The notes beneath the pieces are model-generated. The model saw only the letters and a list, made by a program, of their open reading frames with translations. It searched no databases and was not told where the DNA came from. Shown here one piece after another: positions 478 through 11,696 of a stretch of DNA of 11,696 nucleotides. Origin of the DNA: a virus. Taxonomy: Duplodnaviria; Heunggongvirae; Uroviricota; Caudoviricetes. The translations under genes were made by a program, and so were the position numbers. Numbering within the stretch: position 1 is the first letter of the stretch; each line of letters begins with the position of its first letter. The stretch is taken from IMG/VR virus record IMGVR_UViG_2617270952_000003; one strand, written 5' to 3'.

Positions 478-504
478 AAAAAATAAGCCCGTGTAAGGGC
501 GTTT
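478..504. other. Putative attL core of the P2-like integrase
   Basis: AAAAAATAAGCCCGTGTAAGGGCGTTT matches the P2 attP/attB core as recalled from memory (AAAAAATAAGCCCGTGTAAGGGAGATT) at 25 of 27 positions. It lies about 80 bp beyond the 3' end of int, as in P2. Confidence 0.55.
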
Positions 505-6925: not shown

Positions 6926-6944
6926 GGCGAGGCGGGGTAAGCAT
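6926..6944. other. Putative cos site (19-nt cohesive-end sequence)
   Basis: GGCGAGGCGGGGTAAGCAT matches the P2/186/P4 cohesive end as recalled (GGCGAGGCGGGGAAAGCAC) at 17 of 19 positions. It sits in a GC-rich non-coding stretch (6644-6943). Confidence 0.5.
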
Positions 6945-7015
6945 TGCGCGCGCCTGTCAAAGATATTAAGATTGTCTCAAAATCGATTGATTTTATTGAA
7001 CTAATGGAGCTAGGA

Positions 7016-8572
7016 ATGATTAAGGGTATAGGTCTTCAAAACTTCAGGAGCTTTGTCAACAAAACGTTTATTGATTTAAAACCAATTACAGTATTTGTTG
7101 GTAAGAACAGCAGTGGTAAAAGTTCCCTATTGCGCACATTTCCTTTACTTCGTCAATCTGTAGAAGAAAATACTACTGGCCCAATACTATGGTATGGGAG
7201 ATATGTGGATTTTGGCGATTTTACAGATGTACTTTCCCGAAACTCTGAAAAAAAAGAAATTACGTTTAGTTTTTCACTCTCAATTCCGCCAGAGGTTTCA
7301 CAAAGATATACATATTATCGTTCTACTGATTTAGCAAAGCAACCAACAGATATTGAAGCAGAGTTAACTGTTTACTCTAAAGATAAAAAAACAAAAACGA
7401 AAACGATTAAGCTTATATTGGCTGATTTAACAATATTTATTTCAATGGATGAGAGTAGTAATGTTAAATTACTCATTGAATCAGATGATAAAACAATAGA
7501 GCGTGATGGGATAATAGCTAAAAATCTTGGGCAGTTCATACCAAATCTAATTTTGAAGGGTAAGGAAGACAGTCCTCCTCCAAGCACATCATTCTATTTG
7601 AGACATTCTAGGCATGACAGGGCGTTAGAATTGTCATTTATTGATTCAGCGGCGAAATATATAAAGAAATATTTCCATACTAAATCTGATATAAATCAAG
7701 TGACAGAGGCATTCAAAAGAATTGGCTTTATACCCAAAGCGTACGCTAGTAAATTAGTTGCTTTTCTATTTAAGGAACAAAAAGTTTTTAGTAGAAACTT
7801 TGAATTTCAACATGATGAAATAATGAATGAGTTATATCCATTTATAATTGGATGGAATATTAATAATCTTATAGATATAATAAATACATCCTTGTCAGAT
7901 TCATTCAGAAATGTAAAGTACATAGCTCCACTGCGTGCTACATCAGAAAGATTTTATCGTTTTCAAGATTTACAGGTTAATGAGATAGATCATACTGGTT
8001 CCAATCTTGCAATGCTTTTGAATTCATTAAGACCGGCTGATAAATCAAAATTTGAAGATTGGACAAAGTTAAATTTTGATTTCATTATCAAGGTTGAACA
8101 AAGTGGCTCTCACTTTGCAATTTTAATAAACACCGGTGAAAATAGTGAGAACTATAATGTTAGTGATATGGGGTTTGGTTATTCTCAGGTTTTGCCGATA
8201 GTTACAGCCATTTGGCTTGAGACAGAACGTCGTGCTACCACGGTTAGAAAACCTATAACATTTATCATTGAGCAGCCAGAATTGCATTTACATCCGTCAT
8301 ATCAGCATAATTTAGCAAGTATTTTTGCAAAAGTAGTAACTAAAGCAAAAGAAAATAATGTAGATTTGAAGATAATTTTTGAGACACATAGCCAGACCAT
8401 GATTGAAGCACTTGGTGAATATATTGAGGAAAATGAAAGTCTTTCACAGGATGATATTTCAATACTGGTATTTGAAAAAGATGATAAGCAGCAGACTATA
8501 GTTAAGAAATCTTATTTTGACGAGAATGGTTTCCTAAAAAATTGGCCGGTTGGCTTTTTCTCGGGTAAGTAG
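7016..8572 (+). CDS. OLD-family / AAA_21-type ABC ATPase (518 aa), candidate defense ATPase (PARIS AriA-like or Septu PtuA-like architecture)
   Basis: Walker A GKNSSGKSS at nt 7101-7127. Walker B / D-loop FIIEQPELHLHP at nt 8261-8296. Signature-like SDMGFGYSQ and H-loop-like FETHS. Lys/Thr-rich insert (KDKKTKTKTIK) between the ATPase lobes. ATG at 7016 is preceded by GGAG. The gene is AT-rich relative to the phage backbone. Confidence 0.8.
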   Translation: MIKGIGLQNFRSFVNKTFIDLKPITVFVGKNSSGKSSLLRTFPLLRQSVEENTTGPILWYGRYVDFGDFTDVLSRNSEKKEITFSFSLSIPPEVSQRYTYYRSTDLAKQPTDIEAELTVYSKDKKTKTKTIKLILADLTIFISMDESSNVKLLIESDDKTIERDGIIAKNLGQFIPNLILKGKEDSPPPSTSFYLRHSRHDRALELSFIDSAAKYIKKYFHTKSDINQVTEAFKRIGFIPKAYASKLVAFLFKEQKVFSRNFEFQHDEIMNELYPFIIGWNINNLIDIINTSLSDSFRNVKYIAPLRATSERFYRFQDLQVNEIDHTGSNLAMLLNSLRPADKSKFEDWTKLNFDFIIKVEQSGSHFAILINTGENSENYNVSDMGFGYSQVLPIVTAIWLETERRATTVRKPITFIIEQPELHLHPSYQHNLASIFAKVVTKAKENNVDLKIIFETHSQTMIEALGEYIEENESLSQDDISILVFEKDDKQQTIVKKSYFDENGFLKNWPVGFFSGK

Positions 8573-8574
8573 TT

Positions 8575-9687
8575 ATGTTGATTAATATCGAAAATGCGAC
8601 ACCTGAGAAGGTGCTAAATAACTCATTTGCCATAGCGGTTGAAAATATACTTCGGGCATTCGCTGAACAAAAACACTTGGTTATAGGGGCAAGGGTTTTT
8701 TTTAAAACTATTATCAATGATCAAAGCGGGCTTTATAGCCTTTCATCAAAAAGTTACGCGCAAGAGGCTTTGTCGGGTCTAACAGAGTACTATGCTATCT
8801 TGGATCAGGTCTCATTTTATGTATCTGTCGACTTTAATATTAGTGATAAATCATTTAAATGGGTTCAGATCGGTGAATCTTTTAAATTTGTTTGTGGTCC
8901 ATTGTATTTTAATGACTCGGCACAATTGCAAAAAACGAAAATAGTATGTGAAAATCCTTTGGATTCTGATTTTTTTAAGGTTATAGCGGCTCATTATGCC
9001 GAAGGTATTAACTTATCTCGCTGCGAAATGGGTTTTATCGCTCTAAATGGCGGTGGGGGCAGTACTAAGGATATATTCGAGCGTGCAATTCAAAATAATG
9101 AGATAGTTTTTTGTATTGTGGATAATGACAAAAAACATCCTGGAGCCCCATTCGGAGGTACTTGCTCACATTTTTTGGGCTCACAAATTACTCGCTCAGG
9201 TTTCGTGGAGATTTTAGATGTACATGAAATAGAATCTCTAGTTCCTTTATCGACAATTGAAGATGTATTAAGAAGTCAAAGTCAATTGCAACAAAAAGAA
9301 AAATCTCTCATTTTCTTTAAGCATCTTTGCTCCGTAGATGAATCAGTAAAATTTTATATTGACCATAAAAAAGGTTTTGATTTTAAAACAGCCCTTGAAC
9401 TCGATCGAAAACATGGTGCATATTGGCGTCCGATATTAAAGAAGCTTGATATAAAATATGATTGTGAGTATATCGAATCAAAACGTTGTAGCTGCAACGC
9501 TGCTTGTGTAAGTTATGATGGTTTTGGAGAGAATTTGCTCAGCAATACATTGAAATATATACAAAAGGGAAGTTTAAAAAAATATAATCCTCACCTAACA
9601 CCAGTGCTTTCTGATAAATGGTATAAGTTAGGTAAGAATTTCTTTAGTTGGAGTTGTGGTCCATATAAAAAAGCAAGGGTTGGTTAA
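8575..9687 (+). CDS. TOPRIM-like (DUF4435-like) putative nuclease partner of the ATPase (370 aa)
   Basis: Start is 2 nt after the ATPase stop, suggesting translational coupling. TOPRIM-like motif 1 IVCENPLDSD (Glu at residue 126, nt 8950-8952) and DxD motif CIVDNDKK (nt 9121-9129) about 57 residues later. Gly-rich loop NGGGGS between them. C-terminal Cys cluster CEYIESKRCSCNAAC. The assignment is from motifs only. Confidence 0.55.
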   Translation: MLINIENATPEKVLNNSFAIAVENILRAFAEQKHLVIGARVFFKTIINDQSGLYSLSSKSYAQEALSGLTEYYAILDQVSFYVSVDFNISDKSFKWVQIGESFKFVCGPLYFNDSAQLQKTKIVCENPLDSDFFKVIAAHYAEGINLSRCEMGFIALNGGGGSTKDIFERAIQNNEIVFCIVDNDKKHPGAPFGGTCSHFLGSQITRSGFVEILDVHEIESLVPLSTIEDVLRSQSQLQQKEKSLIFFKHLCSVDESVKFYIDHKKGFDFKTALELDRKHGAYWRPILKKLDIKYDCEYIESKRCSCNAACVSYDGFGENLLSNTLKYIQKGSLKKYNPHLTPVLSDKWYKLGKNFFSWSCGPYKKARVG

Positions 9688-9782: not shown

Positions 9783-10232
9783 TCAAAGTGAATATTTTTT
9801 AAATCTTATAACTTCCATTTCTAACCAGTTGTTTAGTTCTTTGAACCGTTCCTGTAAAGGAGTTAACTCATTTCGGACAAACACTTGTGCAGCTTTTACA
9901 ACATCACCAAAACCGCCAACATTGTTAGGCATAATTCCCATCATTTGTGGTGGTACCCTATGAGCACTCAACAAATCTTCTGCACTAACCTTTTTGATAT
10001 TGAAAAAATCATCTTTCGTGGCGACTTCACTCAACGGCACAATCTTGATGCCATCCGGTTTGCCGTTGGGCGCGTAGAAAAACAAGTTTTTGAAATTCCC
10101 GAGTCCTTTCGAGTCACGCATCGCGTTGCGGAGCGACTCGACGTCGGTACACAGCCTCAACGGGAGCGGCTTCACGACGGGCTTAGAGCTTGAGGTTAAG
10201 GTTTCTGATGTGGAGTATGAAAGCGAGGAAGT
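9783..10232 (-). pseudogene. Q: Portal protein gene fragment (3' portion only), P2 Q-like, truncated
   Basis: Minus-strand frame encodes ...LLSAHRVPPQMMGIMPNNVGGFGDVVKAAQVFVRNELTPLQERF..., which looks like the conserved C-terminal region of PBSX/P2-family portals. Only about 130-150 codons remain (P2 Q is about 344 aa). The frame is closed by a stop at 10233-10235 and ogr occupies the upstream space. Confidence 0.6.
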
Positions 10233-10316
10233 TTAACGGCGTGTGTTGTTTATGTGTTTGTTTTATAAGTAAAAATTAGTAAAATTAACACATTGAATAC
10301 GCCGGAGACCCTCATC

Positions 10317-10538
10317 ATGTTTCATTGTCCGAAATGCCATCATGCCGCCCACGCCCGCACGAGTCGCTATTTTACTGATACCACAAAAGAGCGGTATCAC
10401 CAGTGCACAAACATTAACTGCAGCTGCACGTTTGTGACCACTGAAACAGTCGAGCGTTTTATCGTGTCGCCGGGGGAAGTAGTACCCGCGCCGCCGCATC
10501 CGACATCATCAGGTCAGCAACAAATTCACTGGATGTGA
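10317..10538 (+). CDS. ogr: Ogr-family zinc-finger late-gene transcriptional activator (73 aa)
   Basis: MFHCPKCHHAAHARTSRYFTDTTKERYHQCTNINCSCTF carries the C-x2-C...C-x4-C zinc-finger signature of P2 Ogr / P4 Delta. GGAGA ribosome-binding site 8 nt upstream. Confidence 0.9.
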   Translation: MFHCPKCHHAAHARTSRYFTDTTKERYHQCTNINCSCTFVTTETVERFIVSPGEVVPAPPHPTSSGQQQIHWM

Positions 10539-10546
10539 CAAACGAG

Positions 10547-10572
10547 AAAGCCCCGCGAATGCGGGGCTTTTT
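10547..10572 (+). terminator. Rho-independent terminator downstream of ogr
   Basis: AAAGCCCCGC-GAAT-GCGGGGCTTT hairpin with a GC-rich stem, followed by TTTTT. Confidence 0.8.
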
Positions 10573-10844
10573 GCAACTTTTAGATCAGTTATGTTAAGTA
10601 CATTTCCGTCGGCAAAGTGCCAGGAGCGGGTTCTAGAGAGTGACTAACGTTAGTTATATGTGTAAAATTCCTTAAAAATAAGAAGGATATATATCCATGA
10701 CAGCAATTGCATATTGGATTAACTGAGAATCAATTGAGAAATTTTGGGGGGGGCAAAAAATAAACTAGCTAATTAAATTTTTATAAATAACGAATATAAG
10801 ACTGCAAGCCATTTAACAAAAGTTTATAAATAAAGGAGTCAGTT

Positions 10845-11696
10845 TTGAACAATATCCCCATATCTACTCAATGGACTTTAGACGCTACGGGTGAAGTTGG
10901 ACGCTCATCAGTAAATTCTGTTTATATGATTATATGTCCTGCGACAGGCTCGAAAGGATCTGGTTTTTTAATAGATAATGGGTTAATAGTAACGAACGAG
11001 CATGTTATCACTGGATGCTCTACAAATCAGATTTTCGCAATTTCAGCTTATGGACAGAAGATTCCAATTTCTCAAAAATGGATAGATTCTGATCGCGATT
11101 TAGCTGTGCTGAGACCTGCCATTACCCAGACTGGTGGGCTAAGTATTGTTAAGGATAATGATCTTAAAGTTGGTGAATCAGTAACAACTTGGGGATACCC
11201 ATTAGGATACAACGGTCCTGCACCGTTACTATCCGTTGGTTATCTAGCAGGATTTAACTCATACCAAACCGCCAAGGGACAAAAAAAACATCTAGTGGTA
11301 AATGGGGCATTTAACTCAGGAAATTCTGGTGGAGCTCTTTTAAAAGCTTCAGATAATAAAGTAATAGGTATTGTAGTGAGTAAGCATGCTCCTATCAGTC
11401 AATACCATCAATCAGCTATTGAAGCTTTGTCTGAAAATATGAGTGGCGTCACCTATACCGCTACTAATGACGCTGGAGAAACTAAAAGTTTTGTAGAATC
11501 TCAAATTGTAGCAGAATTATTGATTCATATGAGAAGTCTAACTCAAGTTATGATTGGAGAAGCAATTGCAGCAGAGGAATTACTTTCGATGCTTAGCGAA
11601 ATTGACTTGAGTCCACCACAATCTATGTCAAGAAATGCCTTATGTCATTGCGGGAGTGGAAAACGCTTCAAAGAATGTCATGGAAAGATATCCTAG
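10845..11696 (+). CDS. Trypsin-like (S1/Trypsin_2) serine protease with C-terminal SEC-C zinc-binding motif (283 aa)
   Basis: Catalytic triad contexts TNEHV (His), DRDLAVL (Asp) and GNSGGAL (Ser). C-terminal CHCGSGKRFKECHG is a SEC-C motif. TTG start with AAGGAG 7 nt upstream. AT-rich. The ORF ends exactly at the window edge (TAG at 11694-11696). Confidence 0.7.
   Translation: MNNIPISTQWTLDATGEVGRSSVNSVYMIICPATGSKGSGFLIDNGLIVTNEHVITGCSTNQIFAISAYGQKIPISQKWIDSDRDLAVLRPAITQTGGLSIVKDNDLKVGESVTTWGYPLGYNGPAPLLSVGYLAGFNSYQTAKGQKKHLVVNGAFNSGNSGGALLKASDNKVIGIVVSKHAPISQYHQSAIEALSENMSGVTYTATNDAGETKSFVESQIVAELLIHMRSLTQVMIGEAIAAEELLSMLSEIDLSPPQSMSRNALCHCGSGKRFKECHGKIS

What the first reader, a model, noticed from the sequence alone, without database searches (positions are those of the whole stretch)
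10845..11696. Stand-alone trypsin-like protease fused to a C-terminal SEC-C motif, AT-rich, just outside the prophage
The ORF has a complete S1 catalytic triad and ends in a SEC-C zinc-binding motif (CHCGSGKRFKECHG). There is no obvious N-terminal signal peptide (MNNIPISTQWTLDATGEVGRSS), which suggests a cytoplasmic protease. Its AT-rich composition and position next to a prophage junction suggest it belongs to an accessory island. Cytoplasmic trypsin-like proteases occur in some stress and phage-defense contexts, but its partners would lie beyond the window.
Basis: partly seen in the sequence, partly recalled or inferred. Interest (0 to 1): 0.45.

Follow-up and report, generated by a model that had tools for sequence, protein, structure and literature searches.

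The report
Prophage cargo protease with SecA-like tail
A single self-contained gene at the right end of a P2-like prophage encodes a cytoplasmic HtrA-type serine protease with a SecA-like metal-binding tail; the same gene moves between unrelated phages and integrons, so it is mobile accessory cargo of untested function (possibly phage exclusion), not a housekeeping protease or part of a larger operon.

Summary
The ORF at 10845-11696 is real. It has a TTG start with an AAGGAG ribosome-binding site, a Trypsin_2 domain, an invariant His53/Asp85/Ser161 triad, a C-terminal SEC-C knuckle close to the SecA metal-binding domain, no signal peptide and 39% GC. It does not lie outside the prophage. It is a ~1.26-kb insert between the ogr terminator and the phage attP arm, and attR, CyaR and yegQ follow. 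No partner genes lie beyond the window. The gene is stand-alone: 51 species-level loci share no conserved neighbour, and in Vibrio parahaemolyticus it is a one-gene integron cassette. Close SEC-C-bearing copies sit at accessory-gene sites of P2-like, K139-like, lambdoid/P22-like and Mu-like prophages. More distant relatives lie in a casposon-like locus and beside IS91-type transposases. The family is small (210 clusters), strongly conserved and patchy across bacteria and archaea. Some members have signal peptides. Only leaderless members carry C-terminal adaptor tails (SEC-C or TPR). It fails every HtrA/DegP orthology cutoff and has no PDZ domain. The best reading is a mobile single-gene cytoplasmic protease, perhaps docked to SecB or ribosomes, with a possible phage-exclusion role. 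That role is inferred from context only; nothing tested here or in the literature shows it.

The parts
478..499 (+). attL core of the P2-like prophage (AAAAAATAAGCCCGTGTAAGGG)
   Evidence: A 22-nt exact direct repeat with L001 17376-17397 (attR), found downstream of the identical protease gene in E. coli WP2-S18-ESBL-07. It matches the P2 attP core.
10293..10538 (+). ogr late-gene activator, the last backbone gene before the insert
   Evidence: Pfam Ogr_Delta 2.2e-20. In P2, ogr is followed within about 100 nt by a terminator, the Int P arm, the IHF site and the attP core.
10547..10575 (+). ogr rho-independent terminator hairpin, the left boundary of the insert
   Evidence: The terminator scan finds the hairpin (reported on the minus strand) at 10547-10570. 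It aligns with the P2 ogr terminator, and a near-identical second copy follows the protease gene in L001.
10615..10844 (+). AT-rich upstream non-coding region that travels with the gene (promoter-like site 10640-10668, Shine-Dalgarno 10833-10838)
   Evidence: It is conserved with the upstream regions of the Klebsiella copies, which sit in a different prophage type (A4). The promoter-like matches are not above chance, 6 found against 4.4 expected. The leader has no significant RNA structure, z = 0.30.
10845..11696 (+). 283-aa stand-alone serine protease gene (WP_001059829.1); the TTG start is conserved in all six subfamily loci aligned
10920..11378 (+). HtrA-like (S1C) chymotrypsin-fold protease core, aa 26-178; His53 at 11001-11003, Asp85 at 11097-11099, Ser161 at 11325-11327
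   Evidence: Pfam Trypsin_2 covers aa 38-176. A PDB profile search hits DegQ at 8e-17. The AF2 model (pLDDT 81.5) matches Deg1, DegQ, DegP, DegS and MarP at E about 1e-12 and roughly 20% identity. The triad is invariant.
11394..11549 (+). Family-specific helix / beta-hairpin / helix insertion (aa 184-235) before the last barrel strand (QVMIGEA) and the C-terminal helix
   Evidence: Secondary structure of the model. The region is strongly conserved (VESQIVAELL..LTQVMIGEA). It is not covered by the matches to HtrA sequences, which end at about aa 178.
11631..11687 (+). SEC-C / SecA-like metal-binding domain (aa 263-281; ligands Cys267, Cys269, Cys278, His279)
   Evidence: Pfam SEC-C scores 30.4 bits against a cutoff of 20.4. 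PDB SecA MBD peptides 1TM6, 1SX0 and 1OZB and the YchJ C-terminal peptide match. The C-x-C-x8-C-(H/C) pattern is kept across the subfamily down to 65% identity.

Best explanation
The gene is a phage 'moron': a self-contained ~1.26-kb unit made of an AT-rich leader, one ORF and a terminator. It is inserted between the ogr terminator and the attP arm of a P2-like prophage integrated at the cyaR/yegQ site. It encodes a leaderless, catalytically competent HtrA-like (S1C) serine protease. The protease has no PDZ domain. Instead it carries a family-specific insertion and a C-terminal SecA-type metal-binding domain. The gene works alone. It circulates as a single-gene module among integron cassette arrays and the accessory-gene sites of at least four kinds of temperate phage.

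Shown here: the anatomy, the position inside the prophage, the mobility, the absence of any partner gene, and the failure of housekeeping orthology.

Inferred, about 40% likely: the SEC-C tail docks the protease onto SecB and/or the ribosome, as the near-identical domains of SecA and AscA/YecA do. This would put it next to nascent or pre-secretory polypeptides. Other leaderless relatives carry TPR repeats at the same position.

Inferred, about 40% likely: the benefit to the lysogen is exclusion of other phages, through infection-triggered or targeted proteolysis. The conserved weak TTG start would keep basal levels low.
For: Inside the prophage: the att core repeat lies at window 478-499 and at L001 17376-17397, which is the 3' end of CyaR. 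The sequence after the gene is colinear with the P2 terminator, P arm, IHF site and attP core. Six further long contigs show the same layout.

A discrete mobile unit: GC is 0.37 against 0.49 for the backbone. The flanking non-coding DNA is conserved between the copies in E. coli P2-like, Klebsiella lambdoid and Mu-like phages.

Single gene: the V. parahaemolyticus copy is one cassette bounded by attC repeats within a 23-repeat array. No conserved neighbour was found within +-4 ORFs in 51 species-level loci, and the neighbour Pfam families are heterogeneous.

Phage accessory sites: the Vibrio K139-like int-cI interval is a published antiviral hotspot (PMC9122126). Other sites are a Yersinia P22/lambdoid prophage between the replication genes and the holin, a Klebsiella prophage end beside umuDC and a TIR-domain gene, and a Mu-like genome end after the tail-fibre assembly gene. 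More distant relatives sit in casposon-like and IS91 contexts.

Active protease: the triad is invariant and the fold is HtrA-like.

Cytoplasmic: no leader was found. C-terminal SEC-C or TPR tails occur in 24 of 99 leaderless members and 0 of 60 signal-peptide members.

Tail function: the tail matches the SecA MBD. The MBDs of SecA and AscA/YecA bind SecB and ribosomes (bioRxiv 10.1101/613315 and 10.1101/2020.07.21.215244).

Defence plausibility: integron cassettes and P2 cargo loci are rich in defence genes (PMC13434031; PMC13586616). Trypsin-like domains are recurrent defence modules.
Against: There is no experimental evidence for any phenotype, and no paper names this protein. No known defence model matches beyond the protease or SEC-C domain level. 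Most neighbours in non-proteobacterial genomes are housekeeping genes. The neighbours in the Vibrio and Yersinia loci do not match PADLOC models. About a third of full-length family members are predicted to be exported, which is hard to reconcile with one cytoplasmic anti-phage mechanism for the whole family. The 50-57% identity between the E. coli protein and archaeal copies is unusual for fast-evolving sensor-type defence proteins. The ogr-att interval is not among the P2 defence hotspots listed in PMC13586616. SEC-C motifs can serve other roles, such as redox or metal sensing and DNA binding in YchJ. The gene is absent from 50,697 deposited phage genomes and appears in only 3 of 2.9 million IMG/VR contigs.
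Confidence: 0.45

Rival explanations
1. It is a resistance or immunity protease. It is mobile cargo that destroys an incoming proteinaceous or peptide toxin (bacteriocin, contact-dependent or T6SS effector, peptide antibiotic). Exported forms would act in the periplasm or outside the cell, and leaderless forms in the cytoplasm.
For: Integron cassettes classically carry resistance functions. The family has both signal-peptide and leaderless forms with the same conserved mature N-terminus. The very high conservation across bacteria and archaea fits a host-independent substrate. The gene is self-sufficient as a single unit.
Against: No toxin or bacteriocin genes were seen nearby. No known resistance protease family matches. 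This reading does not explain the SecA-like or TPR adaptor tails.
Confidence: 0.15
2. It is an accessory proteostasis or stress factor. It would be a cytoplasmic HtrA-like quality-control protease that removes misfolded or mislocalised pre-secretory proteins held on SecB or ribosomes. This would improve lysogen fitness without any role in phage exclusion.
For: The closest solved relatives are protein-quality-control proteases: DegQ, DegP, DegS, Deg1 and MarP. The SecA-like MBD links it to the Sec/SecB/ribosome interface, and AscA/YecA uses the same domain for chaperone work.
Against: It is not an orthologue of any housekeeping HtrA. It is rare and strictly mobile, with 35 of 5426 E. coli genomes and only 58 loci found by a two-motif pattern scan of 185,579 species genomes. 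A general proteostasis gene would not be expected to sit at phage moron sites and in integron arrays.
Confidence: 0.15
3. It is a phage-benefit function rather than a host benefit. The protease would act for the prophage itself, for example as counter-defence by degrading a host or rival-element immune protein or repressor, or by processing during induction.
For: It is carried by several temperate phage types. It lies next to the late activator ogr.
Against: It is separated from ogr by a terminator and is absent from P2 and most P2-like phages. It is also found in sedentary integron arrays, a casposon-like locus, IS91 contexts and non-phage chromosomal sites. It is retained in the defective remnant in this window, where all late genes are missing.
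Confidence: 0.1
4. The protein is exported or released (periplasmic or extracellular protease, virulence or nutrition factor), like its signal-peptide-bearing relatives.
For: 60 of 169 full-length family members examined have classical signal peptides directly before the conserved N-terminal motif. The fold is that of periplasmic HtrA proteases.
Against: This copy and its whole SEC-C subfamily have no leader and no possible upstream start. A Cys/His metal knuckle that binds cytoplasmic partners occurs only on leaderless forms.
Confidence: 0.07
5. One reading: it is one component of a multi-gene defence island outside the prophage, with its partners downstream of the window.
For: PADLOC domain-level hits to protease modules of multi-gene systems.
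Against: Downstream lie a terminator, the att site, CyaR and the core genes yegQ, parDE, yegP and baeSR in every genome examined. No conserved neighbour was found anywhere.
Confidence: 0.03

Closest known systems
HtrA/DegP/DegQ/DegS/MarP serine proteases (MEROPS S1C)
   Same: Both have the chymotrypsin fold, a His-Asp-Ser triad and the GNSGG active-site motif. These are the best sequence and structure matches.
   Different: This protein has no PDZ domain and no signal peptide or membrane anchor. Identity is about 20%, and scores fall far below every orthologue cutoff. It has an extra N-terminal helix, a ~50-aa insertion before the last barrel strand and a SEC-C tail. It is encoded on mobile elements, not in the core genome.
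SecA C-terminal metal-binding domain and the SecA-like MBDs of AscA/YecA and YchJ
   Same: The tail RNALCHCGSGKRFKECHGK aligns to the E. coli SecA RNDPCPCGSGKKYKQCHGR, with all metal ligands, the conserved Ser and the basic residues in place. In SecA and AscA this domain binds SecB and ribosomes.
   Different: Here the domain is attached to a protease instead of a translocase ATPase or chaperone. Binding partners were not tested. In YchJ, related motifs serve redox-controlled DNA binding.
Trypsin-like protease modules of anti-phage systems (retron type XI RT-protease, trypsin-HamA/Avs2 with MBL or nuclease proenzymes, Lamassu LmuA variants, gasdermin-activating proteases)
   Same: The protease superfamily is the same, and PADLOC profile hits reach 7e-21 to 8e-7. 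Both have mobile, defence-associated genomic settings.
   Different: In those systems the protease is fused to, or encoded next to, a sensor and a latent effector that it cleaves (papers listed). Here there is no RT, no STAND/Hachiman/Lamassu partner and no adjacent proenzyme.
Lit protease of the e14 prophage (single-gene abortive-infection protease that cleaves EF-Tu); cited from my own knowledge, not tested here
   Same: Both are single prophage-borne protease genes that could act on the translation apparatus.
   Different: Lit is a zinc metalloprotease with a known phage trigger, the T4 Gol peptide. No trigger, substrate or phenotype is known for this protein.
Phage morons and integron gene cassettes as carriers of accessory or defence genes
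   Same: The gene is an insert between genes that are adjacent in P2, with deviant GC and terminator flanks. The Vibrio orthologue is a bona fide attC-bounded cassette.
   Different: The ogr-att interval is not among the P2 defence hotspots described so far (gpA-gpQ, tail genes, int-att, int-gpA). The E. coli copy has no recognisable attC site.

Membership tests
HtrA/DegP/DegQ/DegS housekeeping proteases | Chymotrypsin-fold protease domain with a His-Asp-Ser triad | tested here: met
   Pfam Trypsin_2 1e-19. Invariant H53/D85/S161. Foldseek matches Deg1, DegQ and DegP at E about 1e-12.
HtrA/DegP/DegQ/DegS housekeeping proteases | One or two C-terminal PDZ domains | tested here: not met
   No PDZ hit in Pfam. 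The C-terminus is a helical insertion plus SEC-C.
HtrA/DegP/DegQ/DegS housekeeping proteases | N-terminal signal peptide or membrane anchor (periplasmic location) | tested here: not met
   Hydropathy maximum 1.49 (11-aa window) in the first 35 aa, and no upstream start is possible. This is a heuristic only; SignalP was not available.
HtrA/DegP/DegQ/DegS housekeeping proteases | Score above the curated orthologue cutoffs; conserved core-genome locus | tested here: not met
   NCBIfam best scores are 60 bits against cutoff 250 (MarP), 55 against 470 (HtrA) and 50 against 416 (Do family). The gene is present in 35 of 5426 E. coli genomes, inside a prophage.
SecA-like metal-binding domain (Pfam SEC-C) proteins | C-x-C-x8-C-(H/C) knuckle with the conserved GSGK core, scoring above the Pfam gathering threshold | tested here: met
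   30.4 bits against 20.4. Matches 1TM6, 1SX0 and 1OZB.
SecA-like metal-binding domain (Pfam SEC-C) proteins | Binds Zn/Fe and docks onto SecB and/or ribosomes | not testable with these tools
   Known for SecA and AscA/YecA. Here it is inferred from sequence identity only.
Phage moron | Extra DNA between two elements that are adjacent in related phages | tested here: met
   In P2, the ogr terminator is followed directly by the Int P arm. Here ~1.26 kb lies between two copies of that terminator.
Phage moron | Deviant base composition and its own transcription signals | tested here: inconclusive
   GC is 0.37 against 0.49 and a downstream terminator is present. Upstream promoter-like sites are not above chance. 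The upstream region is, however, conserved across carriers.
Integron gene cassette | A single ORF bounded by attC recombination sites | tested here: met
   This is met for the 72%-identical V. parahaemolyticus orthologue (L002 repeats at 7855-7986 and 8849-8978). It is not met for the E. coli copy, where no attC-like site was recognised in L001 17138-17280.
Known protease-containing anti-phage systems (retron XI, trypsin-Hachiman/Avs/Lamassu with MBL or nuclease, gasdermin) | Protease fused or adjacent to a sensor (RT, STAND, HamAB, LmuB) and a cleavable effector | tested here: not met
   The neighbours are ogr and attR. No conserved partner was found in 51 loci. PADLOC hits cover only the protease domain.
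Known protease-containing anti-phage systems (retron XI, trypsin-Hachiman/Avs/Lamassu with MBL or nuclease, gasdermin) | Demonstrated protection against phage | not testable with these tools
   No publication mentions WP_001059829. No trypsin-like or SEC-C protein is mentioned in the main text of the P2-hotspot or integron screens I read.

The most novel reading that the evidence does not exclude
The SEC-C tail parks a latent HtrA-like protease on SecB and/or at the ribosomal exit tunnel. There it cleaves nascent or pre-secretory polypeptides, which could be phage proteins or SecB-dependent outer-membrane phage receptors. If so, a one-gene prophage or integron module would confer phage exclusion by proteolysis at the translation/secretion interface. 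That would be a defence logic not described so far. TPR-tailed and exported relatives would be retargeted versions of the same enzyme.
Probability: 0.15. Interest if true: 0.75.

Novelty: new variant of a known kind. Interest (0 to 1): 0.45.

Why it matters
If the protease is shown to protect lysogens, it would add a compact single-gene system to the defence repertoire, with an unusual targeting device: a SecA-type SecB/ribosome-binding domain. It would also mark the ogr-att interval as another P2 cargo site. Independently of function, the family is a clear example of one ~1.2-kb module shuttling between integron arrays and the accessory slots of at least four unrelated temperate phage types, with more distant relatives in transposon-like elements and in archaea. 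The exact protein is very common in sequenced E. coli: it is indexed in 3785 blocks of the assembly collection and occurs in 35 complete genomes, several of whose strain names (NDM3-6, 5CRE51) suggest carbapenem-resistant isolates. A phenotype would therefore be relevant to phage susceptibility in clinical strains.

Tried and rejected
1. A partner gene beyond the window was rejected. Identical loci continue into a terminator, attR, CyaR and yegQ.
2. A conserved neighbour elsewhere was not found. Clustering ORFs within +-4 positions in 51 loci gave none, and the Pfam families of the +-1 neighbours are heterogeneous.
3. A PADLOC scan of neighbours in the Yersinia, Klebsiella and Vibrio loci returned only a TIR-domain protein and one marginal PDC-S05 hit.
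4. Housekeeping HtrA orthology was rejected.
5. Searches of deposited phage genomes found no protein match and no near-identical DNA for the ogr-to-protease interval.
6. Rfam found nothing in the window. The 5' leader shows no significant fold, z = 0.30.
7. Promoter-like sites are not above the shuffled expectation.
8. Foldseek against viral structures gave only generic trypsin-fold hits.
9. Literature searches for the accession, and searches of the main text of the P2-hotspot and integron-screen papers for a SEC-C or trypsin-like protein, found nothing specific.
10. The look-up of P0022 found no record.
11. I could not inspect model coordinates. The roles of the N-terminal helix and the insertion, such as autoinhibition or oligomerisation, remain open.
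Full report
**The observation.** The ORF at 10845-11696 (+) is real. It encodes 283 aa. The start is a TTG preceded at 6 nt by AAGGAG, and an in-frame TAA at 10827-10829 rules out any longer N-terminus. RefSeq annotates exactly this ORF as WP_001059829.1, 'trypsin-like peptidase domain-containing protein'.

- Pfam gives Trypsin_2 (aa 38-176, E 1e-19), Trypsin (5e-8) and SEC-C (aa 263-281, 30.4 bits against a gathering score of 20.4).
- In an alignment of 26 homologues, His53, Asp85 and Ser161 (GNSGG) are invariant.
- The tail SRNALCHCGSGKRFKECHGKIS matches the solved SecA metal-binding-domain peptides 1TM6, 1SX0 and 1OZB (E 6e-6 to 4e-5) and the YchJ C-terminal peptide.
- No hydrophobic leader or transmembrane segment is present. 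The 11-residue hydropathy maximum in the first 35 aa is 1.49 and the 19-residue maximum is 1.17.
- GC is 0.388 for the ORF and 0.371 for the whole insert, against 0.491 for the phage backbone.

**Where the gene is.** The window is a P2-like prophage. Its parts, in order, are:

- a yegR-like lipoprotein gene (1-318);
- the attL core (478-499);
- int, C, cox, B and gpA;
- a low-GC two-gene cargo in the classical gpA-portal hotspot (6944-9687);
- a portal fragment;
- ogr (10293-10538);
- the protease.

Thirty-five of 5426 complete E. coli genomes carry the protease region at 99.7% identity or more. In strain WP2-S18-ESBL-07 (L001) it follows gpD and ogr of a complete P2-like prophage. A 22-nt repeat of the window's attL core lies 239 nt after the stop codon. 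It coincides with the 3' end of the CyaR sRNA, and yegQ follows.

The 120 nt before that core align colinearly with the P2 ogr terminator, Int P arm, IHF site and attP core. In P2 itself these elements start 11 nt after the ogr stop codon. Here ogr has its own copy of the terminator (10547-10575), followed by ~1.26 kb of foreign AT-rich DNA and then a second near-identical terminator.

The gene is therefore inside the phage genome, as an insert at its right end. It is not outside the prophage, and nothing but attR and core genes lies downstream. Another P2-like prophage at the same chromosomal site carries a different insert in this interval, a small ORF plus a group II intron. The interval therefore accepts foreign DNA.

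**What the protein is.** A profile of the family finds DegQ, DegP, HtrA, DegS and MarP in the PDB (best 8e-17), but only over aa 34-180. An AlphaFold2 model (mean pLDDT 81.5) matches the same proteases by Foldseek at E about 1e-12 and roughly 20% identity.

Relative to the HtrA proteases it has four differences:

- no PDZ domain;
- an N-terminal helix (aa 6-23);
- a strongly conserved helix / hairpin / helix insertion (aa ~184-235) before the last barrel strand;
- the SEC-C knuckle.

All NCBIfam HtrA, DegP, DegS, DegQ and MarP models score far below their cutoffs. It is a distinct S1C-like family, not a housekeeping orthologue.

**The family.** An exhaustive profile search of 1.84 billion representatives finds only 210 clusters at E <= 1e-30, against 65,126 generic trypsin/HtrA-like hits at E <= 1e-3. 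A pattern scan (two conserved peptide motifs) of one genome from each of 185,579 species found only 58 loci. Yet these span Gammaproteobacteria, many Acidobacteriota, Dehalococcoidia, candidate-phyla-radiation (CPR) lineages, Chlamydiae, Bacteroidota and archaea (Nitrosocosmicus, Nitrosopumilus, Iainarchaeum, Pacearchaeota), at 40-57% identity to the E. coli protein. This is a patchy, horizontally spread and strongly constrained family.

Among 169 full-length members examined:

- 99 are leaderless;
- 60 have classical signal peptides placed directly before the conserved (I/L)P(V/I)(S/A)T N-terminal motif;
- 10 have N-terminal extensions with no predicted signal peptide.

C-terminal add-ons occur only on leaderless members. 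Nineteen carry SEC-C, all close relatives of the query; the named ones are gammaproteobacterial. Five carry longer helical or TPR tails (P0129 and P0105 have clear TPR repeats). That is 24 of 99 leaderless members against 0 of 60 signal-peptide members (Fisher p = 4e-6, indicative only because the sequences are related). This supports a cytoplasmic location for the SEC-C subfamily. It also suggests the C-terminus is an exchangeable protein-interaction adaptor.

**Stand-alone and mobile.** In V. parahaemolyticus the 72%-identical orthologue sits in the chromosomal superintegron. The locus has 23 attC-type repeats of ~130 nt, and the protease is the only gene between two of them. The neighbouring cassettes differ between strains. 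The Microbulbifer copy is likewise flanked by attC-like sites.

In one V. parahaemolyticus genome the same cassette lies between the integrase and the cI repressor of a K139-like prophage. It begins exactly at the G|TTATAC crossover point and ends with a complete attC site. Rousset et al. described this interval as an antiviral hotspot (PMC9122126).

Other close copies (>=80% identical, SEC-C tail) sit at:

- the end of a lambdoid prophage in Klebsiella, next to umuDC and a TIR-domain gene;
- a position between the replication genes and the holin of a P22-like prophage in Yersinia;
- the end of Mu-like viral contigs, after the tail-fibre assembly gene.

More distant relatives without the SEC-C tail sit in a casposon-like Cas1/PolB locus and next to IS91-type transposases.

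The ~230-nt upstream and ~100-nt downstream non-coding flanks are conserved between the E. coli, Klebsiella and Mu-like copies, so a discrete ~1.2-kb module has moved. Across 51 species-level loci, no neighbour within +-4 ORFs recurs at a fixed position, and the neighbour domains are heterogeneous. The TTG start is conserved in all six subfamily loci aligned.

**How it most likely works.** Shown: it is an intact, conserved and probably active serine protease that functions as a single gene and is carried as cargo by mobile elements.

Inferred from the literature: SecA-type metal-binding domains bind SecB and ribosomes in SecA and AscA/YecA. The tail here keeps the ligands, the GSGK core and the basic residues. 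Docking to SecB or ribosomes is therefore the most economical reading. I put it at about 40%, because related motifs do other things in YchJ.

Inferred from context: integron cassettes and P2 cargo loci are rich in anti-phage genes, one carrier site is a published hotspot, and trypsin-like domains are recurrent defence modules. I therefore favour phage exclusion as the selected function, also at about 40%.

The weaknesses of this reading are:

- there is no phenotype and no literature on this protein;
- database matches are domain-level only;
- most neighbours are uninformative;
- exported family members exist;
- the conservation across domains of life would fit a host-independent substrate at least as well.

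**Comparison and novelty.** The protein works like an HtrA-type protease and shares its fold. It fails three of four defining features of the housekeeping family: the PDZ domain, export, and orthologue-level score or core locus. It carries a bona fide SecA-like MBD. It is not a member of any described protease-containing defence system, because it has no sensor or effector partner. It meets the positional and compositional criteria of a phage moron, and its Vibrio orthologue is a true integron cassette.

I rate it a new variant of a known kind. It is an uncharacterised, compact, mobile S1C-like family with exchangeable C-terminal adaptors. Interest is moderate. It makes a good experimental candidate, but the functional claim rests on circumstantial evidence.

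Noticed in passing
window 6944-9687: This is a low-GC (0.34) two-gene cargo in the classical P2 gpA-portal hotspot. It comprises a 542-aa AAA_15/DUF3696 ATPase, whose best PADLOC hit is NsnB (4.9e-55; the Menshen-system ATPase, PMC12065111), plus a 370-aa partner. The partner has no Pfam, NCBIfam or PHROG match and only a weak PDC-M55B hit. It is probably a Menshen-like or PDC-M55-like defence pair.
   Followed up: partly
window ~10146-10150 (portal fragment 9783-10175 on the minus strand joined to the last ~90 nt of gene D): The prophage in the window lacks the whole ~21.6-kb late region (portal to gpD). In all 35 complete E. coli genomes carrying the gene, and in 6 further long contigs with the identical protease, the two halves lie ~22 kb apart. 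No complete genome has this junction. It is either a rare deletion remnant that kept only the early genes plus both cargo loci, or an assembly artefact.
   Followed up: partly
window ~440-499: A P-arm-like sequence (ATCGATGTGGTCAATG) lies just left of the attL core, where bacterial DNA is expected. This suggests a trace of an older P2-type element at the cyaR/yegQ attachment site.
   Followed up: no
L001 17376-17464: The prophage att core overlaps the 3' end (terminator) of the CyaR/RyeE sRNA gene (Rfam 100.7 bits). Integration therefore regenerates the sRNA 3' end at attR.
   Followed up: partly
L006 7980-10600 (V. parahaemolyticus K139-like prophage): Integron cassettes with intact attC sites (8859-8985, and 10483 onward) are inserted between the phage integrase and cI. 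The left boundary falls exactly at the G|TTATAC crossover point. Integron cassettes are apparently being recruited into a prophage defence hotspot.
   Followed up: partly
L078 3997-6179 (E. coli strain A15): A different P2-like prophage at the same chromosomal site carries a 69-aa ORF and a degenerate group II intron between the ogr terminator and attR. This interval repeatedly accepts foreign DNA.
   Followed up: no
L014 6196-13453 (metagenome contig): A 59%-identical, SEC-C-less family member lies between a Cas1 gene and a family-B DNA polymerase gene, which is a casposon-like arrangement.
   Followed up: no
window 10845-10847 and the homologous loci in alignment A4: The TTG initiation codon is conserved in the E. 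coli, two Klebsiella, Yersinia, Microbulbifer and Vibrio copies. This may be selection for low translation of a potentially harmful protease.
   Followed up: no
L026, L034, L037, L075 (archaeal MAG contigs): Family members 50-57% identical to the E. coli prophage protein occur in Nitrosocosmicus, Iainarchaeum, Pacearchaeota and Nitrosopumilus genomes. Several loci elsewhere (L032, L067, L068, L069, L072, L074, L075) look truncated or disrupted.
   Followed up: no
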